A stretch of DNA of 64,000 nucleotides, from IMG/VR virus record IMGVR_UViG_3300029305_011318. One strand, given 5' to 3'. Numbering within the stretch: position 1 is the first letter of the stretch; each line of letters opens with the position of its first letter. The notes under the pieces are model-generated. The model saw only the letters and a list, made by a program, of their open reading frames with translations. It made no database searches and was not told where the DNA came from. Origin of the DNA: a virus (lineage: Duplodnaviria > Heunggongvirae > Uroviricota > Caudoviricetes). The position numbers and the translations under genes are program-made. Shown here piece after piece: positions 1,226-57,453 of the stretch.

Positions 1226-1253
1226 TATTATATGTTTAAATTTTTCTCAAAAA
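1226..1253 (-). promoter_or_regulatory. Box-1 promoter-like motif (TTTTGAGAAAnTTTTAnnCATATAA in gene orientation)
   Basis: tattatatgtttaaatttttctcaaaaa on the + strand. This is one of about 20 near-identical copies upstream of minus-strand genes. Confidence 0.5.
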
Positions 1254-9517: not shown

Positions 9518-9544
9518 CTTTATATGGTTAAAAAATTCTCAAAA
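9518..9544 (-). promoter_or_regulatory. Box-1 promoter-like motif
   Basis: ctttatatggttaaaaaattctcaaaa. Lies after a hairpin at about 9590..9620 that terminates the ATPase gene. Confidence 0.5.
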
Positions 9545-11915: not shown

Positions 11916-11943
11916 TTTATATATGTCTAAAAAATTCTCAAAA
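11916..11943 (-). promoter_or_regulatory. Box-1 promoter-like motif
   Basis: tttatatatgtctaaaaaattctcaaaa. Confidence 0.5.
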
Positions 11944-14019: not shown

Positions 14020-14220
14020 TCATAATGGTTTTATAAAAACAGGATATATGCTGCAAATCATATACCCTAACATACCTATACCAAAAATAAATTCTCCTAG
14101 TTTATCTACAAAATCAGCATATGGTTCTTCACGATATTGAATGCTAATCAGCAACAAAACAAATCCAACCATTAACAAGGAGACACAAAATAATTTCATA
14201 CAAAGTAAAAGTGGTATCAT
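14020..14220 (-). CDS. Small membrane protein
   Basis: 66 aa, two hydrophobic helices. 1-nt overlap with the cca stop. Confidence 0.4.
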   Translation of the reverse strand: MIPLLLCMKLFCVSLLMVGFVLLLISIQYREEPYADFVDKLGEFIFGIGMLGYMICSIYPVFIKPL

Positions 14221-15611: not shown

Positions 15612-15721
15612 ATAACTCTCTCCTTTATTGTTCATTTATAAAAACTTACACTTCTATATGTATAAATTTTCTTCAAAAATAATAAGCCACTAACATAATA
15701 ATGTTAATGACTTAAAATAAA

Positions 15722-18983: not shown

Positions 18984-19009
18984 TTTATATGGAAAAAGAC
19001 TTCTCAAAA
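18984..19009 (-). promoter_or_regulatory. Box-1 promoter-like motif
   Basis: tttatatggaaaaagacttctcaaaa, with a terminator hairpin at about 19040..19065 upstream in gene order. Confidence 0.5.
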
Positions 19010-37305: not shown

Positions 37306-37626
37306 AATATTTTCCTTCTTATTTATTTTGATATGATATATTAGTATTTTGTATTTTTTTATTTACTAAATGTTGATTGAGTTCTTTGCAAATGCCTCTA
37401 CAACAATATTTTTCAGTGCAATGTAAGCAAATAATATTTTTTGCTTTTTCAATTTCTTTTTTATTAATAACCATATTATATTTCCTATGTTTATTTTTTT
37501 ATTTTTATATGTATAAAATATTCTCAAAAGTGTAATAAAAAATATTTTTGTTATAATTCCTTATTCCGGAATAAACAAATCTTCTGTATTATTGAATGCT
37601 TTATCTTATATCACTAGATTTCTTAT

Positions 37627-39795: not shown

Positions 39796-40113
39796 CTAAT
39801 CTCGTGTTGGTCCTTCGTGTTCTTGATGATAGGAAATACCTTGGAATATTTTTTGCCATTCATTTATAATAGTTGGAGAAAAATCAGTAATAGCTCGAAG
39901 AATTTTATTTAAAACTTTATTAGGAATATTGTCTTGATTATTTGCTAATGAACAAGACCCATCTTCATGTATCCAAATTTTAGTGGAATGTTGATGTGGC
40001 GTTTTAGATACATGAACATGTATTGGTTCAATAGGAGAACCTTCATTACTCCAAAAATAAACTTTATATCCATACAAACTTAATAGTTGTGGCATAATTC
40101 TTCCTCCATACAT
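39796..40113 (-). CDS. DUF4160-family protein
   Basis: N-terminal MPQLLSLYGYKVYFWSNEGSPIEPIHVHV matches the DUF4160 signature. Confidence 0.55.
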   Translation of the reverse strand: MYGGRIMPQLLSLYGYKVYFWSNEGSPIEPIHVHVSKTPHQHSTKIWIHEDGSCSLANNQDNIPNKVLNKILRAITDFSPTIINEWQKIFQGISYHQEHEGPTRD

Positions 40114-40358
40114 TCTTTTACAAAATCAGTAATATCTTGTTGTAAATTTGTAATATGTTGAAAAATTTCATCACGGTCTTTGTCGGAATATCCTTTGGAT
40201 TCAATAATTACTAATTCTGGCATTTGAACAGTAAAATGGTCAAAATCATCATGTTCAACACTCCATTTTTCTACATAAATTTGATATTGTCCATTTTCTT
40301 CTATCATTGATGCTGTAATTTCTGTTTCGTCAATTAGTGTCATTACTGGGTATCGCAT
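40080..40358 (-). CDS. Small acidic protein, probable DUF2442-type partner of the DUF4160 protein
   Basis: 92 aa, 34-nt overlap with the downstream DUF4160 gene. Confidence 0.4.
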   Translation of the reverse strand: MRYPVMTLIDETEITASMIEENGQYQIYVEKWSVEHDDFDHFTVQMPELVIIESKGYSDKDRDEIFQHITNLQQDITDFVKECMEEELCHNY

Positions 40359-40429
40359 ATTATATTCTCCTTGTATTACTATATTTACTATATTTACTAT
40401 AACGAAAAACCGATATAATGTAAAATGAT

Positions 40430-40840
40430 TTATTCACGTTCTTCTTGTATCAAATCATCAGTTGAAGATATTGATAATTCTGATAATTTGTTTGGTTCAG
40501 ATAGATGTGCTTTTGTAATAATTCCAGTCGCATAATCCACAAGTAAGAATGCTCTTAATTCCTTAAAACTTTCACAACTTAAACCATATATGTGGTTCTC
40601 TTCATTCACTACTTTCAAATCCCAACTACTATCAGCTTCTTTTATGGGGAGATATGTTTTAGTTTTTCCATGTACTTCCATTACAATTTCTTTGTCTTCT
40701 GTTAAACTTAATATGTTTTGTTCATTTATGTCTAAATTCAAAATGTTTTCCTCCTTAAATTTAACTTTATTATTTTTTCTGTTTATCAAAAAAAGCTTTT
40801 GGAGATGTATCTGCATAACATTGTACACATTTTCCATCAA
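40430..40840 (-). CDS. Hypothetical protein; the true start is probably an internal Met
   Basis: 136-aa ORF whose 5' end overlaps the bactofilin gene. A degraded paralog lies at 31905..32303. Confidence 0.45.
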   Translation of the reverse strand: MMENVYNVMQIHLQKLFLINRKNNKVKFKEENILNLDINEQNILSLTEDKEIVMEVHGKTKTYLPIKEADSSWDLKVVNEENHIYGLSCESFKELRAFLLVDYATGIITKAHLSEPNKLSELSISSTDDLIQEERE

Positions 40841-41735
40841 TTGCTGCTCCCGGATTCATTTGTATCATACCGGACATAATATCGCCTAAAATAATAGCAG
40901 AACTATCTAATACTACATTTCCTTTTATATCTAAAGTTCCTTGTACTGCACCGGCAATAGCTGCTGTTTTTGCTTTAATATTTCCATATACAATTGAACC
41001 TGTATCTAATTTAACCGCTTCTTTACTATTAATATTACCATAGATAATCGAATTGGCAACATATAATTCATTTACGTCAATATCTCCATATAATGCACCG
41101 AAAACATTTAATTTTCCATTACAGGAAACATTACCTTTAACGGCTCCATATAAATCTAAAGCACCAGATGTAATAATATTTCCTTCAATAATCATGTCAC
41201 TTGAAATAATACTTTGTTGTGTATTTAAAGTTGTAACATTTGTAGTTTGTGGCAATATATTTTCTGGTTGTGATAATTGTTTTTGTTCTGGTAATGATTC
41301 GAGTTTATTTTCTTCTTTTTTGCGTAAAAATGATTTTTCAATTACTTCTTTTGTTTTTGCATTTTTTTTACGAGGAACTAAAGATTTTTCAGATGATTCA
41401 ACAATTGATTTTGTTTTTTGGGGTGTTGATTCATTTAACGATTCTTCAACAATGGATTTTTCTGATTGTTCTGTGTCTTCTATTGTTTGATAATTTTCAT
41501 ATTCTTCGGGAGAAAATAAATCATCATCAAAAATCAAATCGTCTAAACTGTCTTCATTGTCTGAGATATTCTCCAAATTGTCTTCATCAATATCCGGGTT
41601 AAAATCATCTTCTAATACATCATCCATATAAACATCATCACTAAATTCAACTTCTGATGCATTATCTTCTATTGCTATATCATCTGTAAAAAAATCTTGT
41701 TCTGCTTCATTTTGCATATCATTAAAAAATCCCAT
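40770..41735 (-). CDS. Bactofilin-domain protein with long acidic N-terminal region
   Basis: C-terminal ~150 aa of repetitive beta-helix-type segments: IIEGNIITSGALDLYGAVKGNVSCNGKLNVFGALYGDIDVN...GNIKAKTAAIAGAVQGTLDIKGNVVL. N-terminal D/E-rich region. Confidence 0.6.
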   Translation of the reverse strand: MGFFNDMQNEAEQDFFTDDIAIEDNASEVEFSDDVYMDDVLEDDFNPDIDEDNLENISDNEDSLDDLIFDDDLFSPEEYENYQTIEDTEQSEKSIVEESLNESTPQKTKSIVESSEKSLVPRKKNAKTKEVIEKSFLRKKEENKLESLPEQKQLSQPENILPQTTNVTTLNTQQSIISSDMIIEGNIITSGALDLYGAVKGNVSCNGKLNVFGALYGDIDVNELYVANSIIYGNINSKEAVKLDTGSIVYGNIKAKTAAIAGAVQGTLDIKGNVVLDSSAIILGDIMSGMIQMNPGAAIDGKCVQCYADTSPKAFFDKQKK

Positions 41736-42080
41736 ATATATATCCTTTCTATATATAATTTATAAAATACTTCTATTTATATATGTGAAAAAATAAGATA
41801 AATTTAATAAAAATATAAATGATGTTTCATAAAACATATGCATATATTAAAATAATAAAAATAAGTTAATTTTGTATTAATATAGTGGTTAAAATAAATT
41901 TGAAAATATACTATATTGAGTGTTAAAATTATAATAATATTAAAACATTATTTCGTTGTGTATAACTTATTACACAAGATAGAATTAAAAAAAACACTCA
42001 ATAAATTTTGAGTGTTTTTTCAATTAAAAAGAGTTCTATCAAAAATGTTAATTCTATAATACCAAACATAAAGATACTTC

Positions 42081-42962
42081 TTAATAGAATAATTTGGCGA
42101 ATTCGGAATCTTTATCAAGAACAATTTTCTTTTCTTTTGTGCCGGAAATGCTATCTTTTAGTGAATCTAATTGGAGAAGATAATTATAAAATTCTGCTTT
42201 GTCTTCATTATTATATGCATCTTGTAAAATTCGCATATATTCTGCTTCACCTTCTGCTTCTAAAACACTTGCTTCTTTTTCTGCCTGTGCAAGCATTACG
42301 GTAACTTTTTTATCGGCTTCATTGCGGATTTTCTGTGCTTCTGATTCTCCTTGCGCTTTATAAGAGGCGGCAATGTTTTCACGTTCAGAAATCATTCTCT
42401 GATATACCGCTTGTTTATTTCCTTCCGGTAAATCTAATAATTTAATTTCTGCTTTTACAATTTCGATACCATAGCCGGTTACTGCATTATTGGAAATATT
42501 CGTAATTTTATCTGTTAATGTTGTACCTCTTGATGCTACGACATCATCTTGTGTCATCGAACTAATAATGTTTTTTGTTGCATTGTAAACTGCAACACTG
42601 GTTCTGCTTTCTGCATTTCCAATAGATGCATTTAATGTTTGTGAAAATTTAATCGGGTCTGTGACTCTCCACAAAACATAATTATCAGTTACCATTGATT
42701 TTTTATCACTGGTAATAACATCTGATTTTGTTACATCATAAAATTGAACACTTTTAGGGCAACGAATAATTTTATCTACAATAGGTGTTTTAAAATATGG
42801 TCCTGCTTCTGTTTTTACTTCATAAATTTTTCCAAATCGAGAAACTAAGGCATATTCATTTTCTTTTACTTTATAAAAAGATGTAAAAAATGCCAATGTT
42901 CCGATAATGAATAAAGTTAAAAATGTTAAAATGAAATATTTATTCTTCATAATAGCCTCCAA
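42081..42962 (-). CDS. hflC: SPFH/band-7 protein, HflC-like
   Basis: N-terminal TM then YKVKENEYALVSRFGKIYEV..GPYFKTPIVDKI. Coiled-coil C-terminus. Confidence 0.8.
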   Translation of the reverse strand: MEAIMKNKYFILTFLTLFIIGTLAFFTSFYKVKENEYALVSRFGKIYEVKTEAGPYFKTPIVDKIIRCPKSVQFYDVTKSDVITSDKKSMVTDNYVLWRVTDPIKFSQTLNASIGNAESRTSVAVYNATKNIISSMTQDDVVASRGTTLTDKITNISNNAVTGYGIEIVKAEIKLLDLPEGNKQAVYQRMISERENIAASYKAQGESEAQKIRNEADKKVTVMLAQAEKEASVLEAEGEAEYMRILQDAYNNEDKAEFYNYLLQLDSLKDSISGTKEKKIVLDKDSEFAKLFY

Positions 42963-43976
42963 TTACTGTGCGAAATCATCTAATGGCAATAATGTTTCAG
43001 AAGTCCCGTCTGTAATGATTAAATCTGCTTTAGGTAAAATTTCATTCATAGATTCATAAAACATACGTTGCTTGGTAATCGCCGGATATTTAATATATTC
43101 TTCATACATATTATTAAATCTGGCAACTTGTCCTTCTGCTTCACTAATACGAGCTGCTTTATTAGCTTCTGCCGTCTGCATAATTTTGTCATATTCGGCT
43201 TCTGCTTGTGGAATGCGTTCATTTGCATATTTTTTGGCATTATTAATAGTAGTGTCTTTATTTTGACGTTCTTGTTCTACTGATTCAAATGCTACCATAA
43301 TTTCTTGTGATGGTGGTTCCGCATCTTGAATTTGTAAATTAACAATTTGGACACCAATATCGTTTTTAGCAAGTTCATTAATAATCATATCTTTTACATC
43401 AGATTGAATCTGATTTTTACCAGTTGTAATAACATCATCTACTGTGTAATTACTTACTATGGTACGAATACATGCTTGTGCAATATTTCGTAAAATATTT
43501 TCCGGTTCATCAGATGTATATAAATACGTGGCTGCATCACTTACTTTATATTCCAAATAAAAATCAACATTAACAAAATTAAAATCGGATGTAATCATTA
43601 GTGATTCTTCCGGTACGCTAATAATATCCTCTGAAGGACGAGAACCAAATAGTTCTGATAAAGATGATTTTTCTGATTCCTCAACTTCTCGATAACCAAT
43701 TTGTAATCCTTGTGTTGTAGTATTAACCTTTTGAATTTTATCAACAAAAGGAATTTTTAAATGTGGTCCTGCTGTTTCTGTTTTTACAACTTTTCCAAAT
43801 CGAGTAATTACTGCTTGTTCTTGTTCATTTACTTTATAAAAAGATGTAAATAGACAAATAGCACATATAATTACGATACAACCTAATAAAATTTTACCAA
43901 TTAAAAATTTGTCTTCTGATGGCGAATTAAGATTTGGTCCATCGAATGAAATTATTACATCTCCGAAAAATGACAT
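42963..43976 (-). CDS. hflK: SPFH/band-7 protein, HflK-like
   Basis: TM then YKVNEQEQAVITRFGKVVKTETAGPHLKIPFVDKI. Adjacent to the hflC-like gene with no gap. Confidence 0.8.
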   Translation of the reverse strand: MSFFGDVIISFDGPNLNSPSEDKFLIGKILLGCIVIICAICLFTSFYKVNEQEQAVITRFGKVVKTETAGPHLKIPFVDKIQKVNTTTQGLQIGYREVEESEKSSLSELFGSRPSEDIISVPEESLMITSDFNFVNVDFYLEYKVSDAATYLYTSDEPENILRNIAQACIRTIVSNYTVDDVITTGKNQIQSDVKDMIINELAKNDIGVQIVNLQIQDAEPPSQEIMVAFESVEQERQNKDTTINNAKKYANERIPQAEAEYDKIMQTAEANKAARISEAEGQVARFNNMYEEYIKYPAITKQRMFYESMNEILPKADLIITDGTSETLLPLDDFAQ

Positions 43977-44011
43977 ATAAAACCTCCTAAATATAATTAT
44001 CTTTCATTATA

Positions 44012-44037
44012 TTTATATGGATAAAACTTTCTCAAAA
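44012..44037 (-). promoter_or_regulatory. Box-1 promoter-like motif (a near-consensus copy)
   Basis: tttatatggataaaactttctcaaaa. Gene-orientation reading: TTTTGAGAAAGTTTTATCCATATAAATATAAT, then AGGAGG-N7-ATG. Preceded by hairpin aagccac..gtggctt (44052..44083). Confidence 0.55.
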
Positions 44038-44094
44038 CTATCAAAATATAAAAAGCCACTTATTATTATTTATGTGGCTTTATCTAAAAATCTA

Positions 44095-44484
44095 TTATGT
44101 GTTTGGAATTTCATTATAATATATCCCCACTTGAATTCTTTTTATAGAATTTACACTAATGGTTATATCTTGATTTTCTATATATGGGTGTTTTATTGTA
44201 ATCGTTCCTTTTAATGTTCCATTTTGATATGCGTTATAATCATCTTGATGAATATATCCATAATATGCACTATAATCATTATGTATAGAAATATCTGTGT
44301 CAATATTCGCAATTAGATAATGCTCTGGTTCTAAGTAGGATTGATTTACAGATTTTTGTTCCCATAATTGCTTGGATTTTATAATTTGTACTCCTTTATA
44401 AATAAAACCAAATACAAAAATACTGAAAATGATTAATATACATACAATTGTGAAAATGTTTTTATCTATTGTTTTTTGATTCAT
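44095..44484 (-). CDS. Membrane-anchored hypothetical protein
   Basis: N-terminal TM, 129 aa. Confidence 0.5.
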   Translation of the reverse strand: MNQKTIDKNIFTIVCILIIFSIFVFGFIYKGVQIIKSKQLWEQKSVNQSYLEPEHYLIANIDTDISIHNDYSAYYGYIHQDDYNAYQNGTLKGTITIKHPYIENQDITISVNSIKRIQVGIYYNEIPNT

Positions 44485-44529
44485 AATTTTACTTCCATAT
44501 TAAAAATTTAGGAATAAATAATCCTATAT

Positions 44530-44557
44530 CATTATATGGTGAAAGTTTTCTCAAAAA
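44530..44557 (-). promoter_or_regulatory. Box-1 promoter-like motif
   Basis: cattatatggtgaaagttttctcaaaaa. Confidence 0.5.
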
Positions 44558-44656
44558 TAAAAAACATCAAGATATAAATTTGATGTTTTTAAAACTTTTT
44601 ATTATTTAATTTTTGAATCGTTTTATCTTTCTTTTTTTTACTAAACTACGGTTTAG

Positions 44657-44995
44657 TTACGCATTCCATTCTTCATAAGAACAAGTAATAGGACTTTCCA
44701 AAAACAATTCCATAAAAGCAACTTTGGTGTTGTTAAGGCAATTATTTTTTTCTTCCCACTCTTCCTGTTCTTCTTCATTAAGGTTGTTTGGTGCTAAGAT
44801 TTCTAAGCCCATTTGCAGTGCTTTTGCCCGAATATTCTCATAAGGTTCGTCATAATAACTCTCCTTATATACTTGAACATCAATTTCAGCAAGTCGCTCT
44901 TCGCAACATAAACATGGCTGTTCATAAGCATCTCCACATACATCAATAAGCGGACACTTCCCGCATTTTTGTTTGTCAATATCTTTTATTTTCAT
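44657..44995 (-). CDS. Cys-rich hypothetical protein
   Basis: CGKCPLIDVCGD...CLCCEE. Confidence 0.45.
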   Translation of the reverse strand: MKIKDIDKQKCGKCPLIDVCGDAYEQPCLCCEERLAEIDVQVYKESYYDEPYENIRAKALQMGLEILAPNNLNEEEQEEWEEKNNCLNNTKVAFMELFLESPITCSYEEWNA

Positions 44996-45025
44996 GACAT
45001 TTCCTTTCCACGCTAAAAGTCAGTT

Positions 45026-45488: not shown

Positions 45489-48400
45489 TTAATGATAATC
45501 ATTATTAGTTTGATGTGTTGTACGATAATGTACTTCGTCTACTAATGGCTCGATAATGATATAATGATTATCTGTAATCGCATTATGTATGCCGGTGCTT
45601 CCAATAATTTCATATTTCCAATATTCGGGAATGTCTACTTTGGAACCTTCCGGAATAATAATATTTGTGCCATCTTCTCCAAACATATCTGCATTTACAT
45701 AGGTTGCAAAAGCATATTGAGCTGTTGCACCATTAACAATTTTGGTTATATCATTCATGTCTGTAACATCAATTTTTGTAGCAATTTTTGTATCAATAGG
45801 TACAATATGTAATGAGAGATTTCGTTTAAATGCTTCATACCCATTAATATTGTCTACGCCCAAATTAAAGATAGCGTCTAATTTACCATTTTTAATATCT
45901 TCTGCAGATTGAATACCTGGGGCAAATGTACCATCTAATTTATAACCAAGAAAATTGAATTTTACGTTTTCAACATATCCAATTGTCCATATTTCAACAT
46001 GTCCATTGTTTCCTGCTGCAAAATATACTTGGTCGTCATAATTAAATACATCATTTTCATTATAAATAACTGTTTTTAATGAAAAATTATACAAATATCC
46101 TTTCGCTGTTCCACCATTAAACGGGTTGGTATTCATTGGGTCGGTTGAAAAATCACCAATAGGGTATCCATCCTCTGTAATACCTTGTGAACCAGTATAA
46201 TTAGAACCTGTTTGTAATTTAGTATGATTTCCTGCATTATCAACTACAATAATAGTATAACCTAAATAGTTTACGCCTTTAAATTCTTTGTAGAGATTAA
46301 TGGTTGTATTATAATTATAAGTATCTCCAGACGCAGAAGTTTGTGCCATTTCATATGTATGGTTTGTAATTGGATTATCAACATCCCATACATATAATAA
46401 TACTTCTTTAATGCCAGAAATAGAATCATTACTTCCTGCAGCAATTGAATCATCTTTTCTATCTGAAACTTTAACATCAAATGTAGTCGTAAAATCATTA
46501 TCTTTAATAATGTTTTCCATTTCTGTTCGTAACGCTTCTTTTGTTAAACCATTACTTATGACAGGAAATTCATCTAAAGTTTTTTGATTAACAGAAAAAT
46601 ATTCAATTGTTGGTGCAGTCTTATCTAATTTAATATGGGAAATATTATCATTGATGCTATATCCACCATATCCATATGTTACTTTTCGAATATTGAATGG
46701 GTCATTTAAAACATTGTTTTCAATACAATCTTTAATATTGTTTCGTGCCCAGTTTAACGTAGCTGCTTCCGGAATTACATAATATTCGCCTTGTACCATA
46801 TAATCTACGGTATTAATAACCGTTCCTGTTGGATATGCTGCTTTCAAATGATAAATATCATCTGTATTGTTTTGAATGTAATTTTTTAATAAATCTGTAC
46901 GTAAAATCTTTTCATCATTTTCTTTGATTTCTGTACGATATTCTGAATATTTTGTCATCGGTATTGTTCCGGATATATCTTCATGTGACATACCTAAATA
47001 TATTAATGAGGAAGCGTCTATATCAATTCCAGAATACGAATCTTTATAAAATGGTCCAAATGGTTCATAAGTTGGTAATTTATAATTACTAACATTATTT
47101 TTTTGTGGTAATAAATATTGTGCAATAGCATATAAACCATGTGATTTTGATGATAATATTTGTGACACAGATGCTGTCTTTGACCAATAAGATGGATTTG
47201 TTGGTTTAGACAATGATTCAATAAATAATGTTTTACGAATTAAATTCCAGCCACCATTATCATTTGGTATGGTTAATAATTCACCCATATTGATATTAGA
47301 AATACGATTCGTAATAGTATTATATCCGGATGTATCATCATCTATAGATGAATATACTGAAACAACATTTCCATTTTCATCAATTAACTCATATTGTGTA
47401 AGTAAAACAGAAAAATCATCATTTCCGCTTTGATAGTAATTAGTGTCTGCTTCTTTAATAACGGTACTTACTTCATATGTAGTATATGTAAAATTCTGAT
47501 AAAAAGTTTCATTTGTCCAAATAGCATATACTTCAATTTGAGGTATATCTTTTATATCTTGATATGTAAAATCATACTCTTGTTTTGTTTTGCCTAAGCT
47601 TTCAACAATAGAATCAAAAGTTGTATTTTTTACGTCAATATTATAAGTTGTATTATCAACAACATTTGTAAATGTTATTAATTCGCCATTTGGATTTGAT
47701 GTTAGGAAAATACCAGTTCCATCTGGTTTCGTATTCCAACCTAAGAAAGTAAATCCGGTAATGGACGTTGTTGGTAAACTTCCGCCATAATCTAATTCTA
47801 AATTATCAATATCATTTAAATTTTCATAGGTATATTCAATACCATTTGTTCCCCAATAACCAGAAATACCAGTCATGTCTTGTCCAGTATGTTTATTGAT
47901 TCTTGTAAAATCAATAGATTCATTATATGCCGGTACATTTTGTGGTTTTCTTACTATGACACTAGGGTTACTTGTACTTGTACCATAATGATATAAATAA
48001 TCTAAATTAGTATTGAAATTAATTTGATATATTTCTGGTTTCCATTGTGCATAAAGCGTCATAATGGTTCCATATTTTTCTAAAATATAGTCATATGTAA
48101 TTTCAGTACCTGGTGCAATTGTGTCTCCTGTTCCATCTGGTTTGGTATTCCAACCAATAAATATGAAACCTTTTTTAGTTAATTCAATATCTTCATTTAT
48201 TGTTTTATTTTCTTTTACAAAAACACTGGTCCCCGGAATAAGTTCTTGTGTAACAATCTCACCTTCTGTTGCAATATTTGCACCCCCGTATTTGTTACAA
48301 TATTCATCGTTGGTACTGTATTCTAAGAAAGATGATAATGGAATTTCAAATGTTACCGTTTCACTAACATTTCCGCTATTATCTACAGTAGCAACATGAA

Positions 48401-50924
48401 CATAATATACTTCATCTTGCCTTTCCATAATAAAATTAGCGGATTCTGTAAAATTAAAAACATTTTGATATGCAGATGTTGTTCCACCTGGGGCATTAGC
48501 ATTGATAATATCAAGTTCTGTTTTAATATCACATGCTGTTTCTTTTTGGTCTACATAGTAATAATATCCTTTTGTACCGGAACAACCGTCCATTTCCAAT
48601 ACATTACTTTCATATAATAACTCATTAGAATTTGCACTATCTTCATAAGCTTCTAATTTATATAAAAACGTACCACCGTTGTCTTTACAATTATTCCAAC
48701 CAATTGACATTTCTGTATCGGATGCACGTTTTAAAATTCGTTTTTCCGGTGCGTCCGGTGCCCATATATCATTTGGATTAATTTTAAAATCAGCGTCTAA
48801 AGCAGTAATTTTGCAATCTGTATCTAAGAATTGTAAAGTAGCTGAACCATTACCTGCATTTACAACATCTTGAGTAGAAATAATTTTTGCTTGTAAAAAC
48901 TCATTTGTATTAACGCCATTGGTTCCTGGTCTGATGCGGGAGCCTCCATACCAGCCACCACCGCCACCACCATAAATTCTTCTGGCGTTACCTTCATTAT
49001 TAACTATATAATTCGCACCAATACTATTTGTCATGCCACCTGTTGAGTTAACGCTACCATTAGCACTGTTATATGTAGATATACAATGTACATAATAAAT
49101 AGAAGAAATGGCACTTCCGCCACCTCCACCTCCTGCAACTACAATACGATTGCCTTGTGAAGTTCCATTTAAACGAAAATCAGTAGCACCACCACCACCA
49201 CCAGAACCGGCATACCATGTGGTATTTTTTGCATATTTATCCCATGCACTACCACTTGTTTTTGATTTAAAATAGGCCTCTAAATTATGTTCACAATCAT
49301 CCCAACATCCATTATATTTACGTACTGTACGATTTGCTGTGGTTGCTCCTAATCCGCCACCATTATAACCAGCATTTCCAGTTCCTGCTGCTCCTCCTAC
49401 ATAAACATATATGGTATCTCCATATTGCAAATGTACATTAGCTTGAATTTTTCCTCCATTACTGCCAACACCTTGTTTATCATAAATTCTTTGATTACAA
49501 TGTTCGCATTTGATAGAAGATTGTGCATATGCATCTCCACCACGACCACCTAATGCTGTTAATTGATAAGTTCCGGTTGCTTTTACTTTATATGTGTAAT
49601 ATCCATTACCGGTATAAGCATAAGATTTACTGATTTCATTTTCATCAAAACTATATCCATTGACATTGATTTTATCATAAGTAAGTCCATCATCCATGCT
49701 CGCATAAAAAACATAGTATTTTGGTATACCATCATCAATAGCATCAACGTGAATCGTATTTTCTGAACTTTCAGAAATATTAATAGGACCATCAAATAAA
49801 TAATGGGCAAGATAATAATTATCTTCTAAACCAAATACATAAGATGTTCCTGTCATAATTCGATTTGGATTAGCAGAAATATCTTTTCTATCTGTCCAAT
49901 ATCTAAATTTGTAGCCATCTCTTTTGGCTTCTTCTAAAATAATTTCTGTACCATATTCACAGGTAATTTCTACATCTCCGGTATTTCCATTATAACTACC
50001 ATGTTCTCCTGTTGATAATATTAATGTACTTTTTAAAGTTTCTTTATAAGTAATTGTGGCTTTTCCATGTCCGAAATGAGTTCCTTCTTCTATATGTTCA
50101 TCTGAAATTTTATCTGAAAAATAACTAATTCCACCATATCCATCAGATGCTCCATACCAAAAACATGGACCACCATAATAACCACCACCGGATGCAGCTG
50201 TATACCATGCAGTAAAATGCCCACAATCGCCTTGATTTAATTGTGAATCTGTTCCTTTACCTAATATATCATTGCCAGAAGATAAAAAGTTACCATATGT
50301 AATTTGGTCTTCATTGGGTACATCAACATGTGATTCTACTAAACCACCACCTCCTCCGGCAACTAAAATTCTACTTTCTAAACTATTGGTATCATTCCAA
50401 TTTCCGGATATAAGTCTAAAATCACTTGCTCCTCCTCCAGAACCTGTTTTGTATTCAATATACTCAATATCATCTGGGTCGGCACATAAAGCATCACTAT
50501 GTTTAGTATGACCGCTTTTTCCTAATCCACCACCATTAAAAGTCGCTGGATTTTCAACTAAATCAATATTTCCGTGTTCACCAAGATAAATGTATAAGGT
50601 ATCATTTTGTAATAATTTTATTTCACCTGCCGTATATCCGCCATAACCTTTTCTGGAATTAGAAGTGGCTCCACCACCAGATGCTCCCCATGCTTCTAAT
50701 TCATATATTCCATTTGCGGGACATGTCCATTTATATACATGGTCACTAATTTGTTCAATTTCGTTTACATTGTCTGCCACATCATAGTTAAAATTCCATT
50801 CCGTAACAGATAAGTTTTCTGCAGCATAAACAGGGATGGGTACTGAAATACTAGCCCCAATCATTGCAATAGATAAAATAGTTGATAATAATCTATTGAT
50901 GTTTATTTTTGTAATATGCTTCAT
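45489..50924 (-). CDS. Giant secreted Gly-rich surface protein with Listeria-Bacteroides (Flg_new) repeats
   Basis: Signal peptide MKHITKININRLLSTILSIAMIGASISVPIPVYA. Multiple poly-Gly blocks (GGGGGLVESH, AGGGGGGSA, GGGGGGWYGG). Two F(I/L)GWNTKPDGTG repeats. 1811 aa. Confidence 0.7.
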   Translation of the reverse strand: MKHITKININRLLSTILSIAMIGASISVPIPVYAAENLSVTEWNFNYDVADNVNEIEQISDHVYKWTCPANGIYELEAWGASGGGATSNSRKGYGGYTAGEIKLLQNDTLYIYLGEHGNIDLVENPATFNGGGLGKSGHTKHSDALCADPDDIEYIEYKTGSGGGASDFRLISGNWNDTNSLESRILVAGGGGGLVESHVDVPNEDQITYGNFLSSGNDILGKGTDSQLNQGDCGHFTAWYTAASGGGYYGGPCFWYGASDGYGGISYFSDKISDEHIEEGTHFGHGKATITYKETLKSTLILSTGEHGSYNGNTGDVEITCEYGTEIILEEAKRDGYKFRYWTDRKDISANPNRIMTGTSYVFGLEDNYYLAHYLFDGPINISESSENTIHVDAIDDGIPKYYVFYASMDDGLTYDKINVNGYSFDENEISKSYAYTGNGYYTYKVKATGTYQLTALGGRGGDAYAQSSIKCEHCNQRIYDKQGVGSNGGKIQANVHLQYGDTIYVYVGGAAGTGNAGYNGGGLGATTANRTVRKYNGCWDDCEHNLEAYFKSKTSGSAWDKYAKNTTWYAGSGGGGGATDFRLNGTSQGNRIVVAGGGGGGSAISSIYYVHCISTYNSANGSVNSTGGMTNSIGANYIVNNEGNARRIYGGGGGGWYGGSRIRPGTNGVNTNEFLQAKIISTQDVVNAGNGSATLQFLDTDCKITALDADFKINPNDIWAPDAPEKRILKRASDTEMSIGWNNCKDNGGTFLYKLEAYEDSANSNELLYESNVLEMDGCSGTKGYYYYVDQKETACDIKTELDIINANAPGGTTSAYQNVFNFTESANFIMERQDEVYYVHVATVDNSGNVSETVTFEIPLSSFLEYSTNDEYCNKYGGANIATEGEIVTQELIPGTSVFVKENKTINEDIELTKKGFIFIGWNTKPDGTGDTIAPGTEITYDYILEKYGTIMTLYAQWKPEIYQINFNTNLDYLYHYGTSTSNPSVIVRKPQNVPAYNESIDFTRINKHTGQDMTGISGYWGTNGIEYTYENLNDIDNLELDYGGSLPTTSITGFTFLGWNTKPDGTGIFLTSNPNGELITFTNVVDNTTYNIDVKNTTFDSIVESLGKTKQEYDFTYQDIKDIPQIEVYAIWTNETFYQNFTYTTYEVSTVIKEADTNYYQSGNDDFSVLLTQYELIDENGNVVSVYSSIDDDTSGYNTITNRISNINMGELLTIPNDNGGWNLIRKTLFIESLSKPTNPSYWSKTASVSQILSSKSHGLYAIAQYLLPQKNNVSNYKLPTYEPFGPFYKDSYSGIDIDASSLIYLGMSHEDISGTIPMTKYSEYRTEIKENDEKILRTDLLKNYIQNNTDDIYHLKAAYPTGTVINTVDYMVQGEYYVIPEAATLNWARNNIKDCIENNVLNDPFNIRKVTYGYGGYSINDNISHIKLDKTAPTIEYFSVNQKTLDEFPVISNGLTKEALRTEMENIIKDNDFTTTFDVKVSDRKDDSIAAGSNDSISGIKEVLLYVWDVDNPITNHTYEMAQTSASGDTYNYNTTINLYKEFKGVNYLGYTIIVVDNAGNHTKLQTGSNYTGSQGITEDGYPIGDFSTDPMNTNPFNGGTAKGYLYNFSLKTVIYNENDVFNYDDQVYFAAGNNGHVEIWTIGYVENVKFNFLGYKLDGTFAPGIQSAEDIKNGKLDAIFNLGVDNINGYEAFKRNLSLHIVPIDTKIATKIDVTDMNDITKIVNGATAQYAFATYVNADMFGEDGTNIIIPEGSKVDIPEYWKYEIIGSTGIHNAITDNHYIIIEPLVDEVHYRTTHQTNNDYH

Positions 50925-51071: not shown

Positions 51072-51527
51072 TTAAGTATTTTCTTTAAAACAATTACTCA
51101 TACATTTTATGAAAATAGAAATAATTATAATTATCGCTAATAAAATGATTGTAATGGGATTTGTAATACATAAAAGAAAATAACCGACATATGGAATATA
51201 AAATATTATTTTTCCTTGAAAATTTTTTTCTGTTACATATATTTTATCTGGATTATCATTATTATCCCCTTTGGTTTCAAATCCTTCATTAGTAATAGCG
51301 ATAACCCGATGTATCACCATTGTATTAGTTGAAGTATTAAAGGCTATAATATCGTCTTTTTTAATATCATTATATTGATAATTCATATCTACGAAACAAA
51401 TACTACCTGTTTTGATAATCGGTTCCATAGACTTAGATAATACTTTATATGGGCGAATGCCTATTAATGATGCTATTGTAATTATTATGATTAATAATAA
51501 AATAATAAAGCAAATAGTATAAGACAC
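51072..51527 (-). CDS. Signal peptidase I, SipW/ER-type (Ser-His)
   Basis: SKSMEP box, VIHRVIAI (His where P-type enzymes have Lys), KGDNNDNPD box E. N-terminal TM. Confidence 0.7.
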   Translation of the reverse strand: MSYTICFIILLLIIIITIASLIGIRPYKVLSKSMEPIIKTGSICFVDMNYQYNDIKKDDIIAFNTSTNTMVIHRVIAITNEGFETKGDNNDNPDKIYVTEKNFQGKIIFYIPYVGYFLLCITNPITIILLAIIIIISIFIKCMSNCFKENT

Positions 51528-52665: not shown

Positions 52666-52739
52666 ATGGACCCTCTGGGACTCGAACCCAGGACCATCCG
52701 GTTATGAGCCGGACGCTCTAACCAACTGAGCTAAAGGTC
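52666..52739 (-). tRNA. tRNA-Met (anticodon CAU), elongator type
   Basis: Folds as GGACCTT-TA-GCTC/GAGC-TCCGG-CTCATAA-CCGGA-TGGTC-CTGGG-TTCGAGT-CCCAG-AGGGTCC-A. G1-C72 pair, no encoded CCA. Confidence 0.85.
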
Positions 52740-52785
52740 CTTATTACAAGGGAATTCTGTCACATTCCCTTGCAATATATTTTTA

Positions 52786-53040: not shown

Positions 53041-54201
53041 TTATCCATTGTAGTTATAAATAATTTGCATATTAGATGGACATTCGTAATTCCAATAATC
53101 TCCAAATGTGATTGCATTCCATTGTTCTTCTGTTCCTTCATAATAAATTGTAGTTAAACCGCTACAATAAGCAAACGTAACACGACCAATAGAAGTCACG
53201 CCAACAGGAATATTGATGCTGGTTAAGCCTTCACACTCATAAAATGCATTATTTCCAATACTTGTAACACCTTCTGGAATGGTGATGCTGGTTAAACCTG
53301 TACAACCGTCAAATGCATTATTTCCAATACTTGTAACACCTTCTGGAAGGATAATACTGGTTAAACCTGTACAGCCAGCAAATGCCCAATTCCCAATGCT
53401 GGCAACACTGTCTGGAATGTTTATGCTGGTTAAACTCCTACAACTGATAAATGCACGACTCCCAATACTGGTTATTCCTTCTGGGATTACGACCTTTGTT
53501 ATTGTTGTTGGACAGGAGCCAATAATATCACTTGCATTTGAACACATTTCATCAATTCCACTTTCTTCCCAAGACGCAACCATCACACCATCTGCATCAT
53601 ATAAACCAGCTTCAAGAGTTGCAATGGATTCACTTGATTCAATCACAATTTCCCAATCTAATGTAGTTGTCCATGTACCAGGTGTAAGTTTTTCCGGTAC
53701 AGGGAACATTTCATCTGAAGATAAGGTAATTGCCCATGTTTCATTACTAGTAGTTGCTGTACAATGTAAATCATTATCAAAATAAGAAGTTTTTGACTTA
53801 GATATAGCATTTACAGTAATTGGTCTATAATCCCAGACAACTTGTTGACCGCCTACTTCAATCATTTGTTCAAGTATACGGGTAAATGTTGCATCTTGTG
53901 GTATATCTGGTGGTATATTTTGGTCTTCCCATAAATTAACTGATAAAACAGTATCCGGTTTTAATGCATATTTTCCATTAATATCAAAAGTTACTTGGTC
54001 TGTGTCTGCTAACGCAGAACCATCTACAACTGTTGGAAATGAAAATTCCACATATTCATCAATAGAAAAATTTAAAACAGTTTCCATTTCTGCAGTATTA
54101 GGGCTATCAAATTGAATTGTACTATCATTTGCATATACACAAATGGTATTGCTTATCATGATAAAAATTATTAATAATAAACTAAATAATTTCTTTTTCA
54201 T
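53041..54201 (-). CDS. Secreted BspA-type leucine-rich-repeat protein with N-terminal beta-rich domain
   Basis: Signal peptide. Repeats ITSIGNNAFDGCTGLTSITIPEGVTSIGNNAF. The N-terminal domain is paralogous to 54244..54780. Confidence 0.7.
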   Translation of the reverse strand: MKKKLFSLLLIIFIMISNTICVYANDSTIQFDSPNTAEMETVLNFSIDEYVEFSFPTVVDGSALADTDQVTFDINGKYALKPDTVLSVNLWEDQNIPPDIPQDATFTRILEQMIEVGGQQVVWDYRPITVNAISKSKTSYFDNDLHCTATTSNETWAITLSSDEMFPVPEKLTPGTWTTTLDWEIVIESSESIATLEAGLYDADGVMVASWEESGIDEMCSNASDIIGSCPTTITKVVIPEGITSIGSRAFISCRSLTSINIPDSVASIGNWAFAGCTGLTSIILPEGVTSIGNNAFDGCTGLTSITIPEGVTSIGNNAFYECEGLTSINIPVGVTSIGRVTFAYCSGLTTIYYEGTEEQWNAITFGDYWNYECPSNMQIIYNYNG

Positions 54202-56871: not shown

Positions 56872-56897
56872 TTTATATGGATAAAATTTTCTCAAAA
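56872..56897 (-). promoter_or_regulatory. Box-1 promoter-like motif
   Basis: tttatatggataaaattttctcaaaa, with hairpin cctctataa-aaaa-ttatagagg (56909..56931) just upstream in gene order. Confidence 0.55.
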
Positions 56898-56949: not shown

Positions 56950-57453
56950 TTAATGTGTTGGTAAAAATATTGCTTTCCCAATAATATCTTTCTTTTTTAC
57001 AAGCCCAACTTCCGGAAATCGACTATCAACACTATTATTGCGATTATCGCCTAAAACAAAATATTCGTTTTGCTTTATATAAATTGGTTCTGAAGCGATA
57101 CCAGTATATAAAATCGTATCTAAATCTAATTTTTCTTGATATATTTGATTATTAATAATTATATCGCCATTTTGATTAATTTGTATGGTATCTCCCGGCA
57201 ATCCAATAATACGTTTAATAAAATATACGCCTCGTGAACAACTTTGTGGATGAAAAGCAATAATATCATTTCTTTGTGGTTCTTCAATATGATAAATAAA
57301 CTTATTAGCAATAAAATTATCCCCATCATGTAATGTTGGGTACATAGAACTTCCAGAAACTTTACCTCTTTGGGCAACAAAAACGGTAATAATAAAAGTT
57401 AAAAAAATTATACTATAAAATAAAATATCAAAAATTTTATGTTTTTTTCTCAT
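56950..57453 (-). CDS. lepB: Signal peptidase I, bacterial P-type (LepB)
   Basis: SGSSMYPTL, KRIIGLPGD, GDNRNNSVDSR boxes. N-terminal TM. Confidence 0.8.
   Translation of the reverse strand: MRKKHKIFDILFYSIIFLTFIITVFVAQRGKVSGSSMYPTLHDGDNFIANKFIYHIEEPQRNDIIAFHPQSCSRGVYFIKRIIGLPGDTIQINQNGDIIINNQIYQEKLDLDTILYTGIASEPIYIKQNEYFVLGDNRNNSVDSRFPEVGLVKKKDIIGKAIFLPTH

What the first reader, a model, noticed from the sequence alone, without database searches (positions are those of the whole stretch)
40430..43976. Element-encoded HflK/HflC pair followed by a bactofilin with a long acidic N-terminus
SPFH proteins HflK and HflC form the membrane cage that gates the FtsH protease. In lambda biology the host HflKC-FtsH axis controls CII stability and the lysis-lysogeny decision. 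Here a mobile element brings its own pair, expressed from a box-1 promoter. Immediately downstream is a bactofilin-domain polymer-forming protein with a ~170-aa D/E-rich disordered N-terminus. A prophage-borne cytoskeletal/scaffold module of this kind is unusual. It could remodel membrane microdomains or manipulate FtsH-dependent proteolysis.
Basis: partly seen in the sequence, partly recalled or inferred. Interest (0 to 1): 0.6.

Follow-up and report, generated by a model that had tools for sequence, protein, structure and literature searches.

The report
Phage-like element carrying hflKC and bactofilin
A low-GC, phage-like element integrated into a tRNA-Thr gene of a gut or rumen Clostridia bacterium carries a real, long-resident copy of the membrane-protease regulator pair HflK/HflC. 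Next to that pair sits a separately transcribed bactofilin gene of ordinary host type, and the two do not form a conserved module.

Summary
**Observation.** The genes are real.
- hflK (42963-43976, minus strand) and hflC (42081-42950, minus strand) both pass NCBI's equivalog cut-offs.
- The bactofilin (40770-41735, minus strand) has a disordered, acidic N-terminus of about 160-170 aa.

**Setting.** They lie in a roughly 27% GC element. It has a tyrosine integrase and a 47-nt tRNA-Thr fragment at its junction with roughly 39% GC host DNA. The hflKC operon has its own copy of an element-specific promoter motif (10 copies in the window, 0 expected by chance).

**Origin of hflKC.** It is not a recent capture.
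- GC3 is 0.14-0.18, against 0.38-0.41 in the host flank.
- Synonymous sites are saturated.
- The pair sits in a 99%-bootstrap clade of low-GC contigs. Two of the other three have a phage-like or plasmid-like context; the third is ambiguous.
- That clade is 60-65% identical to chromosomal Lachnospiraceae HflK.

**No module.** The "HflKC plus bactofilin" module idea fails.
- A hairpin terminator and a 345-nt spacer separate the two units.
- None of about 90 other hflKC loci has a bactofilin nearby.
- The acidic N-terminus is a trait of the whole bactofilin family.

**Precedent.** hflKC pairs on mobile elements already exist on annotated plasmids and on four IMG/VR contigs. An element-borne bactofilin does look rare.

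**Function.** The most likely function is modulation of host FtsH. This is inferred, not shown.

The parts
42963..43976 (-). hflK, 337 aa: N-terminal transmembrane segment (about residues 25-45) followed by an SPFH domain and a coiled-coil region
   Evidence: TIGR01933 at 220 bits, cut-off 159; best PDB match is E. coli HflK 7vhp_E, E 5e-42.
42081..42950 (-). hflC, 289 aa, starting at the ATG behind a GGAGG site 13 nt after the hflK stop codon. The longest ORF starts at a TTG at 42962.
   Evidence: TIGR01932 at 166 bits, cut-off 134; the JGI gene call is 289 aa; best PDB match is E. coli HflC, E 1e-35.
44006..44035 (-). hflKC promoter: TTGAGA, an 18-nt spacer, then TATAAT (11 of 12 consensus positions). 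It contains the element-specific motif TTGAGAA-N9-CATATA ('box-1').
   Evidence: 10 copies in the window, 0 expected by chance; the motif occurs only in loci from this element.
44046..44081 (-). Hairpin plus U tract between orf129 and the hflK promoter. It insulates the hflKC unit on its upstream side.
   Evidence: -9.8 kcal/mol, z-score -2.3.
41983..42019 (-). 12-bp hairpin plus U tract directly after hflC. This is the likely end of the hflKC transcript.
   Evidence: z-score -3.0; 0 of 200 shuffles fold as well.
41736..42080 (-). 345-nt AT-rich spacer between hflC and the bactofilin. It has no box-1 motif and holds a perfect palindrome at 41956-41977.
40770..41735 (-). Bactofilin, 321 aa: MGFF N-terminal motif, acidic then mixed-charge disordered linker (up to about residue 160), beta-helix at 163-305, and a C-terminal CxQCYAD...FFD motif
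40430..40840 (-). ORF of 128-136 aa that overlaps the 3' end of the bactofilin gene. No family match, function unknown.
44095..44484 (-). orf129, a small protein with an N-terminal membrane anchor and its own box-1 promoter (44533-44554), directly upstream of hflK
   Evidence: A protein of similar architecture lies upstream of hflK in L153, but homology is not significant (E 0.12).
60049..61434 (-). Tyrosine integrase at the right end of the element
   Evidence: phrog_1; PF00589 at 96 bits.
61642..61688 (+). 47-nt 3' fragment of tRNA-Thr(GGT). It marks the att junction between the element (about 27% GC) and the host flank holding TetR and AcrB (about 39% GC).
   Evidence: The fragment is 97.9% identical to the 3' part of the intact tRNA-Thr in L095, which has no element.

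Best explanation
**What it is (shown).**
- A large, low-GC, phage-like element is integrated at a tRNA-Thr gene of an uncultured Clostridia host, probably a Lachnospiraceae-like organism.
- It carries a two-gene hflK-hflC operon. The operon is driven by one of the element's own sigma-A-like promoters, which are highly similar to each other, and is bracketed by hairpin terminators.
- The pair belongs to a distinct low-GC HflKC lineage. That lineage descends from Clostridial HflKC, has been resident long enough to match the element's codon composition, and is under purifying selection.
- Besides the window, two of the lineage's three other members (L153, L004) have a phage-like or plasmid-like context. 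The third (L003) is ambiguous.

**How it most likely works (inferred).**
- Both subunits keep the single N-terminal membrane anchor, the SPFH domain and the coiled-coil region of canonical HflK/HflC.
- They therefore most likely assemble an HflKC-type cage in the host membrane. That cage would engage the host's FtsH and change which membrane or element-encoded proteins FtsH degrades while the element is active.
- The element also encodes two signal peptidases and several large secreted proteins. Protecting the secretion machinery or the element's own membrane proteins from FtsH is therefore a plausible purpose.

**The bactofilin.**
- It is a separate transcription unit and an independent acquisition of the ordinary Clostridial chromosomal bactofilin.
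- That family's chromosomal home is the gene order polysaccharide deacetylase, bactofilin, pyrH, frr.
- Its position next to hflKC is incidental, within an accessory region rich in host-derived cell-envelope genes.
For: **Identity**
- Equivalog HMM cut-offs are passed for both subunits.
- PDB best hits are reciprocal.
- Each subunit has a single transmembrane segment.
- The window's HflK keeps all 76 invariant columns of the 28-sequence HflK alignment.

**Operon structure**
- RBS-coupled hflK and hflC, an 11/12 sigma-70-type promoter, and flanking hairpins.
- The promoter class has 10 copies against 0 expected and is confined to this element.

**Integration**
- Integrase plus a tRNA-Thr 3' fragment lie at the GC break. 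A related genome has an empty site.

**Phage-like content**
- In the window: thymidylate synthase, an NrdG-like radical SAM protein, a CCA-adding enzyme, two tRNAs, a RuvC-like resolvase and homing/HNH endonucleases.
- Across the window's left edge and continuing into L093: an RNA ligase.
- Just left of the window, in L093 only: SIR2, PnuC and an intein-containing NrdD.

**Old residency and selection**
- GC3 is 0.14-0.18 against 0.38-0.41 in the flank.
- dN 0.21 and dS 1.49 against L003. dS is not computable (saturated) against chromosomal relatives.

**Lineage**
- The clade {window, L153, L003, L004} has 99% NJ bootstrap support and 26-31% GC.
- L153 is flanked by a phage-type PhoH and an HNH endonuclease. 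L004 has Rep3, a RecD-like helicase and LigA.

**Bactofilin independence**
-.

**Bactofilin family and chromosomal home**
-.
Against: - No FtsH interaction, cage assembly or expression data exist for these proteins. The FtsH step rests only on membership of the HflK/HflC family, which has been characterised in E. coli.
- Whether the host has its own hflKC and ftsH could not be checked, because the host is known only from a 2.3-kb flank.
- No capsid, terminase, portal or tail gene was seen in the 64-kb window or in the 8 kb to its left. The element could therefore be a non-phage integrative element.
- L003, one member of the low-GC clade, lies next to a Tad-like pilus cluster and could be chromosomal DNA of a low-GC organism. 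The clade is thus not proven to be restricted to mobile elements.
- The trees are neighbour-joining only, and the sister group is unresolved (45%).
Confidence: 0.55

Rival explanations
1. HflKC and the bactofilin form one functional scaffold module. In this view the bactofilin polymer on the cytoplasmic face organises or positions the HflKC cages, or the reverse, to remodel membrane domains.
For: - The genes are neighbours on the same strand.
- Both products are membrane-associated scaffolds according to established knowledge of their families.
- Both genes have composition matching the element.
Against: - A hairpin terminator and a 345-nt spacer lie between them, and the bactofilin has no box-1 promoter.
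- None of 88 other hflKC loci has a bactofilin within 10 kb by tblastn, and an HMM search of 90 hflKC loci finds only the window's own.
- The close relative L153 has an unrelated 296-aa gene after hflC.
- Cellular copies of this bactofilin family pair with a polysaccharide deacetylase, not with hflKC.
Confidence: 0.07
2. The element's HflKC acts independently of FtsH. It would serve as a general SPFH membrane-microdomain or membrane-stress scaffold that keeps the host membrane functional, or organises element processes at the membrane, during induction and heavy secretion.
For: - Single SPFH/prohibitin genes without a partner occur in many phages: phrog_200, Fusobacterium and Rhizobium phages, CSP3 orf75 (PMC10269572) and satellite AH14b (PMC4936722).
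- E. coli HflKC has roles in respiration and stress tolerance beyond lambda CII, according to the titles and abstracts of PMC12005517 and PMC10434171.
- The element encodes many exported proteins and two signal peptidases.
Against: - The proteins are specifically HflK and HflC equivalogs kept as a pair, not generic SPFH proteins.
- In the solved structures the pair is built around FtsH (7vhp and 7wi3 are the best matches).
Confidence: 0.22
3. The pair is a superinfection-exclusion or anti-phage factor expressed from the resident element.
For: - The operon has moron-like architecture, with its own promoter and flanking terminators.
- Its products are membrane proteins.
Against: - There is no PADLOC match for any of nine proteins in the neighbourhood, apart from one very weak SIR2 hit in orf112.
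- The promoter belongs to the same class that drives the tRNA-Gln, the RNA-ligase region and other housekeeping-type element genes. That does not suggest a lysogeny-only moron.
Confidence: 0.06
4. The genes are passively captured host genes with no role for the element.
For: The closest named relatives are chromosomal Lachnospiraceae and Clostridiales HflK.
Against: - Identity to the nearest chromosomal copies is only about 62%.
- GC3 is fully ameliorated to the element.
- dN/dS is about 0.14 within the low-GC clade.
- All family-invariant residues are kept.
- The same lineage is found on other contigs with phage-like or plasmid-like context.
Confidence: 0.03
5. The carrier is not a prophage but another kind of integrative element, such as a genomic island or an ICE-like element.
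For: - No virion genes occur in 64 kb plus 8 kb.
- A PcfJ-like protein is present.
- There are no DNA matches and almost no protein matches to 50,697 phage records.
- The contig is absent from IMG/VR.
Against: - The window holds nucleotide-metabolism and RNA-repair genes, tRNAs and homing endonucleases. An intein-containing NrdD lies just left of the window (L093). All of these are typical of large phages.
- Genes are shared with IMG/VR contigs that have a primase-helicase, an endolysin-like gene and RNA ligases.
- The left 56 kb of the contig was not readable here.
Confidence: 0.25

Closest known systems
E. coli HflK/HflC, the FtsH-modulating SPFH cage (PDB 7vhp, 7wi3)
   Same: - An adjacent hflK-hflC gene pair.
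- Each subunit has one N-terminal transmembrane segment, an SPFH domain and a coiled-coil region.
- Both pass the TIGR01933 and TIGR01932 equivalog cut-offs.
- The best PDB matches are reciprocal.
   Different: - Only about 29% identical to enterobacterial HflK.
- The cytoplasmic N-terminus is short.
- The pair is encoded on an integrated low-GC element in a Clostridial host.
- FtsH binding was not tested.
Chromosomal HflKC of Lachnospiraceae and Clostridiales (for example Kineothrix alysoides and Oribacterium)
   Same: - 55-62% identical by tblastn best segment.
- Same domain layout and same gene order.
   Different: - The chromosomal copies sit in 44-57% GC DNA, in housekeeping contexts such as rpmF-hflK-hflC-copZ-copA.
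- The window's pair falls in a separate, 99%-supported low-GC clade.
hflKC pairs and single SPFH genes on mobile elements
   Same: - A mobile element carries HflK/C-family genes. Earlier authors also speculated about a link to lysis-lysogeny control.
- Examples: plasmid pVs58 of Vibrio coralliilyticus with annotated hflK-hflC; four IMG/VR contigs, L089-L092; and single SPFH/prohibitin genes in phages CSP3 (PMC10269572), AH14b (PMC4936722), and Fusobacterium and Rhizobium phages.
   Different: - The described phage examples are single SPFH genes. Here both subunits are present.
- The window's pair is a different lineage from the IMG/VR ones (48-52% identity; L090, L091 and the L089+L092 pair sit on separate branches). 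This points to repeated acquisitions.
Clostridial chromosomal bactofilin family (MGFF motif, acidic linker, bactofilin domain)
   Same: - MGFF start, an acidic N-terminal extension, a beta-helix and a C-terminal CSQCYAD...FFD motif.
- 30-35% identity over the full length and 41-48% over the domain.
- For the 149 nearest cluster representatives, the N-terminal extension has a median length of 205 aa and 29% D/E. The window's extension is 171 aa with 29% D/E.
   Different: - Chromosomal copies sit in the order polysaccharide deacetylase, bactofilin, pyrH, frr. The window's copy is alone on a mobile element.
- After the two phenylalanines the N-terminal motif is acidic, unlike the lysine-rich membrane-targeting consensus MFSKKKK described in PMC12448750.

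Membership tests
HflK/HflC (FtsH protease modulators, SPFH superfamily) | SPFH/Band 7 domain in both proteins | tested here: met
   PF01145: E 1.2e-30 for HflK and 8.1e-30 for HflC.
HflK/HflC (FtsH protease modulators, SPFH superfamily) | Scores above the curated equivalog cut-offs that separate HflK from HflC and from other SPFH proteins | tested here: met
   TIGR01933: 220.4 bits against a cut-off of 159.4. TIGR01932: 165.6 bits against 134.4. Cross-scores are far lower at 66 and 51 bits.
HflK/HflC (FtsH protease modulators, SPFH superfamily) | Adjacent, co-oriented hflK-hflC gene pair | tested here: met
   The hflK stop and the hflC ATG are 12 nt apart, with a GGAGG site between them. Nearly all other hflK loci examined show the same order.
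HflK/HflC (FtsH protease modulators, SPFH superfamily) | Single N-terminal membrane anchor, with the bulk of the protein on one side of the membrane | tested here: met
   Each protein has one hydrophobic window: HflK around residues 21-51 and HflC around residues 7-32. This rests on hydropathy only.
HflK/HflC (FtsH protease modulators, SPFH superfamily) | Forms a hetero-oligomeric cage that binds FtsH | not testable with these tools
   There is only sequence similarity to the chains of 7vhp and 7wi3. No multimer prediction or experiment was done.
Bactofilin | Bactofilin (DUF583) domain above the Pfam threshold | tested here: met
   PF04519 at 74.5 bits against a cut-off of 27.9.
Bactofilin | Right-handed beta-helix core flanked by disordered tails | tested here: met
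   The AlphaFold2 model has strands across residues 163-305 with pLDDT of 91-98, and pLDDT below 50 for residues 14-159.
Bactofilin | N-terminal membrane-targeting sequence of the MFSKKKK type | tested here: inconclusive
   The protein starts MGFFNDMQNEAE. It has two hydrophobic residues, as in the consensus, but acidic residues in place of lysines (consensus from PMC12448750).
Bactofilin | Nucleotide-independent polymerisation | not testable with these tools
   This needs biochemistry.
Hypothetical HflKC-bactofilin module | Conserved genomic linkage | tested here: not met
   None of 88 other hflKC loci has a bactofilin by tblastn. An HMM search over 90 hflKC loci finds only the window's own. 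There is none in the close relative L153.
Hypothetical HflKC-bactofilin module | Co-transcription | tested here: not met
   A 12-bp hairpin plus U tract follows hflC, then a 345-nt spacer. No box-1 motif precedes the bactofilin. This is prediction only, with no RNA data.
Temperate phage (prophage) | Integrase and an att site at a tRNA gene, with a composition break from the host | tested here: met
Temperate phage (prophage) | Virion genes (capsid, portal, terminase, tail) | tested here: inconclusive
   No virion gene was found among the annotated ORFs of the window or in L093. The other 56 kb of the contig could not be read.

The most novel reading that the evidence does not exclude
This could be the first mobile-element-borne bactofilin. 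In this reading, a large temperate phage of rumen or gut Lachnospiraceae uses its own bactofilin polymer as a viral cytoskeletal or host-takeover device. It could co-polymerise with, or displace, the host bactofilin that normally partners a cell-wall deacetylase. The phage's own HflKC cage would act alongside it. Together they would rewire cell-wall growth, cell division or membrane proteostasis during infection.
Probability: 0.12. Interest if true: 0.7.

Novelty: new member of a known kind. Interest (0 to 1): 0.4.

Why it matters
**HflKC.**
- It is a classic host factor in the phage lambda lysis-lysogeny decision, and what it does outside E. coli is poorly understood.
- The same low-GC HflKC lineage turns up on several contigs with phage-like or plasmid-like context, kept under purifying selection. 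At least three further viral-contig lineages carry their own pairs.
- This suggests that manipulating FtsH, or membrane quality control more broadly, pays off repeatedly for large phages of gut and rumen Clostridia.
- It also offers a natural set of divergent HflKC variants for testing what the cage does.

**Bactofilin.**
- The element-borne bactofilin appears to have no counterpart in PHROGs, INPHARED or IMG/VR. It would be a cheap target for localisation and dominant-negative experiments.

**Limits.**
- Neither point overturns current understanding. hflKC on mobile elements and SPFH genes in phages are already on record.

Tried and rejected
1. Megablast of 40000-45000 against the phage and plasmid collections gave no match.
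2. PADLOC found no defence-system match for the neighbourhood.
3. An IMG/VR scan with the single HflK protein found nothing, so the contig is not in IMG/VR. The alignment-based scan found four more distant viral loci.
4. The word-indexed protein search with the bactofilin returned only two hits. The exhaustive HMMER search was needed to see the family.
5. I used the single metagenome scan on the promoter motif, hoping to recover the left half of the contig and related elements. It returned 51 single matches that look like chance, and the source contig is not in that collection.
6. tblastn of two large element proteins against phages gave one weak hit and no hit. No link to any described phage was found.
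7. Walking left along the contig stopped 8 kb beyond the window, because only window-encoded proteins may be looked up.
8. I tested whether the small membrane proteins upstream of hflK in the window and in L153 are homologous. The result was not significant (E 0.12).
9. The palindrome at 41956-41977 does not recur in the window as an operator family.
10. The hits that looked like phage-borne bactofilins (MT835953, MT835670, IMG/VR 3300029413_000008) were rejected. All show the chromosomal deacetylase-bactofilin synteny, in two cases continuing into pyrH and frr.

Full report
**1. What is at the coordinates**

All genes in this part of the window are on the minus strand.

- **hflK.** The ORF at 42963-43976 (337 aa) has an SPFH/Band 7 domain (E 1.2e-30). 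It scores 220.4 bits on the HflK equivalog model TIGR01933, whose cut-off is 159.4.
- **hflC.** The next ORF scores 165.6 bits on the HflC equivalog TIGR01932, whose cut-off is 134.4. The cross-scores are far lower, at 66 and 51 bits.
- **hflC start.** Its real start is the ATG at 42950, behind a GGAGG site 12 nt after the hflK stop. This gives 289 aa and agrees with the JGI gene call.
- **Topology and structure matches.** Each protein has one N-terminal hydrophobic segment. Against solved structures, the first protein matches E. coli HflK best (7vhp_E, E 5e-42) and the second matches E. coli HflC best (E 1e-35).
- **Bactofilin.** The ORF at 40770-41735 (321 aa) has a bactofilin domain at 74.5 bits, against a cut-off of 27.9. 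An AlphaFold2 model gives a confident beta-helix at residues 163-305 (pLDDT 91-98), and pLDDT below 50 for residues 14-159.
- **Charge pattern.** Residues 1-100 are 39% D/E with a net charge of -38. Residues 100-145 are lysine-rich.

**2. Transcription units**

- **hflKC promoter.** Upstream of hflK lies TTGAGA, an 18-nt spacer and TATAAT (44006-44035). This is the best sigma-70-type match in the region, at 11 of 12 positions.
- **Box-1 motif.** The promoter contains a longer motif, TTTTGAGAA-N9-CATATAA. That motif occurs 10 times in the window, always on the minus strand and in intergenic DNA, against 0 expected. Among all loci fetched, it occurs only in those from this same element.
- **Other box-1 copies.** They precede the tRNA-Gln, a GNAT gene, orf129, the RNA-ligase region and other genes.
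- **Upstream boundary.** A hairpin plus U tract separates orf129 from the hflK promoter.
- **Downstream boundary.** A 12-bp hairpin plus U tract follows hflC directly (z-score -3.0; 0 of 200 shuffles fold as well).
- **Spacer.** The bactofilin starts 345 nt further on, after an AT-rich spacer that has no box-1 motif.

By prediction, hflKC and the bactofilin are separate units.

**3. The carrier**

- **Source.** The window is the last 64 kb of a JGI metagenome contig of roughly 127-128 kb. The same genes occur in a second metagenome.
- **Composition.** GC is about 0.27 up to roughly 61 kb and about 0.39 in the last 2.3 kb, which encodes TetR and a fragment of AcrB.
- **Junction.** A tyrosine integrase (60049-61434) lies next to the junction.
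- **att remnant.** At 61642-61688 there is a 47-nt stretch 97.9% identical to the 3' part of tRNA-Thr(GGT). In a related genome (L095, AcrB 81% identical) that tRNA is intact, and the region shows only ordinary chromosomal genes with no integrase.
- **Conclusion on integration.** The element is integrated at a tRNA-Thr gene in a Clostridia host. Beyond three unnamed metagenome proteins at 81-94% identity, the closest AcrB relatives are only about 60% identical, and the few that carry names are Clostridium or Lachnospiraceae MAGs.
- **Gene content in the window.** Thymidylate synthase, an NrdG-like radical SAM protein, a CCA-adding enzyme, two tRNAs, a RuvC-like resolvase, and homing and HNH endonucleases.
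- **Gene content at and beyond the left edge.** An RNA ligase spans the window's left edge. Just left of the window lie SIR2, PnuC and an NrdD that carries an intein. This profile is typical of a large phage.
- **Host-like envelope genes.** Two signal peptidases, an MCP, a CAP-domain protein, a BspA-type LRR protein and an 1811-aa secreted protein.
- **What is missing.** No virion gene was seen. There is no DNA match and almost no protein match to known phages or plasmids, and the contig is not in IMG/VR.

'Prophage' is therefore likely but not shown.

**4. Origin of hflKC**

- **Closest relatives.** Among 6,498 homologues, the closest are unnamed metagenome proteins at about 70% identity. Next come Clostridiales, Lachnospiraceae and Oribacterium HflK at 55-64%.
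- **GTDB genomes.** The best hit is Kineothrix alysoides at 62%.
- **Chromosomal context.** The Oribacterium locus examined has a housekeeping context and no bactofilin. The closest chromosomal relatives lie in DNA of 44-57% GC.
- **Low-GC clade.** The window's HflK forms a clade with L153, L003 and L004 with 99% NJ bootstrap support. All four are 26-31% GC.
- **Contexts within the clade.**
  - L153 (HflK 73% and HflC 76% identical to the window's) is flanked by a phage-type PhoH (phrog_2765, 356 bits) and an HNH endonuclease (phrog_5200).
  - L004 has a 5'-3' exonuclease, LigA, a RecD-like helicase and Rep3.
  - L003 is ambiguous, lying next to a Tad-like cluster.
- **Composition.** GC3 of hflK and hflC is 0.14 and 0.18. 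This matches the rest of the element (0.15) and not the host flank (0.38-0.41).
- **Selection.** Against L003, dN is 0.21 and dS 1.49. Against chromosomal relatives, dS is saturated.
- **Conservation.** The window's HflK keeps all 76 invariant columns of the 28-sequence alignment.

The pair is an old, selected resident of a low-GC lineage. Two of that lineage's other three members have a phage-like or plasmid-like context.

**5. Precedent for hflKC on mobile elements**

- **IMG/VR contigs.** Four carry hflK, and three of them show hflC directly after it; L090 ends at hflK. They are 48-52% identical to the window's HflK over the trimmed alignment. L089 and L092 pair together (89-93% bootstrap), while L090 and L091 sit elsewhere in the tree.
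- **Their contexts are phage-like.** A primase-helicase in L092. An RNA ligase, an endolysin-like gene and GyrB in L091. A Pnkp/Rnl1 fusion and PIF1 in L089. Some share other genes with the window.
- **Plasmids.** 71 plasmid records hold a near-full-length HflK. The 52-kb Vibrio plasmid pVs58 has annotated hflK-hflC.
- **Literature.** Single SPFH or HflK/C-family genes are described in phage CSP3 and satellite AH14b, with speculation about lysis-lysogeny control (PMC10269572, PMC4936722). I found no paper describing a phage-borne HflK plus HflC pair. That is the only sense in which the hflKC part is new.

**6. The bactofilin**

- **Family size.** The exhaustive search gives 2,561 cluster representatives at E up to 1e-3.
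- **Shared architecture.** Full-length relatives share an MGFFxDLKEDLSQAV start, a variable acidic linker, the bactofilin domain and a C-terminal CSQCYADVNPxSFFD motif.
- **Family statistics.** Among the 149 nearest representatives, the N-terminal extension has a median of 205 aa and 29% D/E, and 126 start with MGFF or MSFF. The window's protein has 171 aa, 29% D/E and an MGFF start. The long acidic N-terminus is therefore a family trait.
- **Chromosomal home.** The family normally sits in the order polysaccharide deacetylase, bactofilin, pyrH, frr.
- **Apparent viral hits.** The two INPHARED hits and one of the two IMG/VR hits show that same chromosomal synteny, so they are not phage genes. 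The other IMG/VR hit (L098, a 5.9-kb contig) showed none of these neighbours, and its context was not examined further.
- **PHROGs.** No PHROG family matches the bactofilin.
- **Linkage.** Among the hflKC loci examined, none besides the window's own has a bactofilin within 10 kb, by tblastn or by profile HMM. The close relative L153 also lacks one.

The adjacency is therefore unique to this element and best read as incidental. An element-borne copy of this bactofilin does seem rare.

**7. Mechanism**

- **Shown:** identity of the genes, operon layout, integration of the element, long residency of the pair, and purifying selection.
- **Inferred for HflKC:** from family membership, the pair assembles an HflKC-type cage that engages host FtsH and shifts which substrates FtsH degrades. 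In this secretion-heavy element those substrates may be the translocon or the element's own membrane proteins.
- **Rivals:** FtsH-independent membrane scaffolding, superinfection exclusion, and passive cargo. Passive cargo is effectively excluded.
- **Inferred for the bactofilin:** it may polymerise on its own or with the host homologue, to which it is 41-48% identical in the domain. Its N-terminal motif has the two hydrophobic residues of the known membrane-targeting sequence but acidic residues instead of lysines (PMC12448750). Membrane binding is therefore uncertain.

**8. Verdict**

The 'module' claim and the degree of unusualness are not supported.
- The finding is a new member of a known kind: HflK/C-family genes borne on mobile elements. 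It comes with a rare element-borne bactofilin as a side point.
- Interest is moderate.

Noticed in passing
window 61642-61688 (+), 60049-61434 (-), 61739-63985 (-): The att junction. A 47-nt 3' fragment of tRNA-Thr(GGT) lies between the element's tyrosine integrase and host TetR/AcrB genes, with a GC jump from about 0.27 to about 0.39. The related contig L095 has the intact tRNA and no element.
   Followed up: yes
window 1229-1250, 9521-9542, 11920-11941, 18986-19007, 37506-37527, 44014-44035, 44533-44554, 56874-56895, 58612-58633, 59949-59970 (all -): An element-specific promoter class, TTTTGAGAA-N9-CATATAA followed by a TATAnA-like -10 element. There are 10 copies against 0 expected, and two more just left of the window in L093. 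One copy precedes the tRNA-Gln. The conserved CATATAA lies inside the spacer and might be a regulator site.
   Followed up: partly
window 45489-50924 (-): An 1811-aa protein with a signal peptide, two ALK/LTK-type glycine-rich domains and a Listeria-Bacteroides repeat. It matches PHROGs of unknown function (7388, 1589, 5811).
   Followed up: no
window 56950-57453 (-) and 51072-51527 (-): The element encodes a clear signal peptidase I (PF10502 at 142 bits) and a second, weaker S26/S24-like protein. Nearby lie a BspA-type LRR protein (53041-54201) and a CAP-domain protein (28274-28915).
   Followed up: no
window 5055-6257 (-): A protein with a methyl-accepting chemotaxis signalling domain on a phage-like element (PF00015 at 101 bits; phrog_8572).
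   Followed up: no
window 127-1192 (-), 14220-15635 (-), 52667-52740, 58307-58380; L093 17968-20777: An RNA-repair and nucleotide toolkit. It includes an RNA ligase with a PHA02142 OB domain, a CCA-adding enzyme, tRNA-Met and tRNA-Gln. Left of the window lie SIR2, PnuC and an NrdD interrupted by an intein with a LAGLIDADG domain.
   Followed up: partly
L089 11947-14148; L091 5582-6820: In two IMG/VR phage contigs the hflKC pair also lies next to RNA-repair genes. In L089 a Pnkp/Rnl1 fusion sits directly downstream. In L091 an RNA ligase sits 3 kb upstream. This may be coincidence or a shared early-gene region.
   Followed up: no
window 42768-42887 vs 43734-43850: The 5' parts of hflC and hflK are 78-85% identical at the DNA level over about 120 nt, covering the FTSFYKV...RFGK...KIPFVDKI region. 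That is high for paralogues and may indicate gene conversion or strong constraint.
   Followed up: no
window 41956-41977: A perfect palindrome, TTGTGTATAACTTATTACACAA, in the spacer between hflC and the bactofilin. It is unique in the window and could be an operator for the bactofilin unit.
   Followed up: partly
window 39796-40113 (-) and 40080-40358 (-): A DUF4160 gene overlapped by an upstream 92-aa ORF. This is the arrangement of small toxin-antitoxin-like pairs. A HipA-like kinase lies at 20898-21902.
   Followed up: no
L097 (IMGVR_UViG_3300029413_000008), L099 (MT835953), L100 (MT835670): These 'viral' records carry the chromosomal order polysaccharide deacetylase, bactofilin, followed in L097 and L099 by pyrH and in L099 also by frr. 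They are probably host DNA, provirus flanks or misclassified contigs.
   Followed up: partly
L016, L022, L026, L029, L033, L036, L060: MAGs labelled Synergistaceae or Synergistales carry HflK proteins that cluster inside the Lachnospiraceae-type diversity (53-57% identical to the window's). This could reflect horizontal transfer or mis-binning.
   Followed up: no
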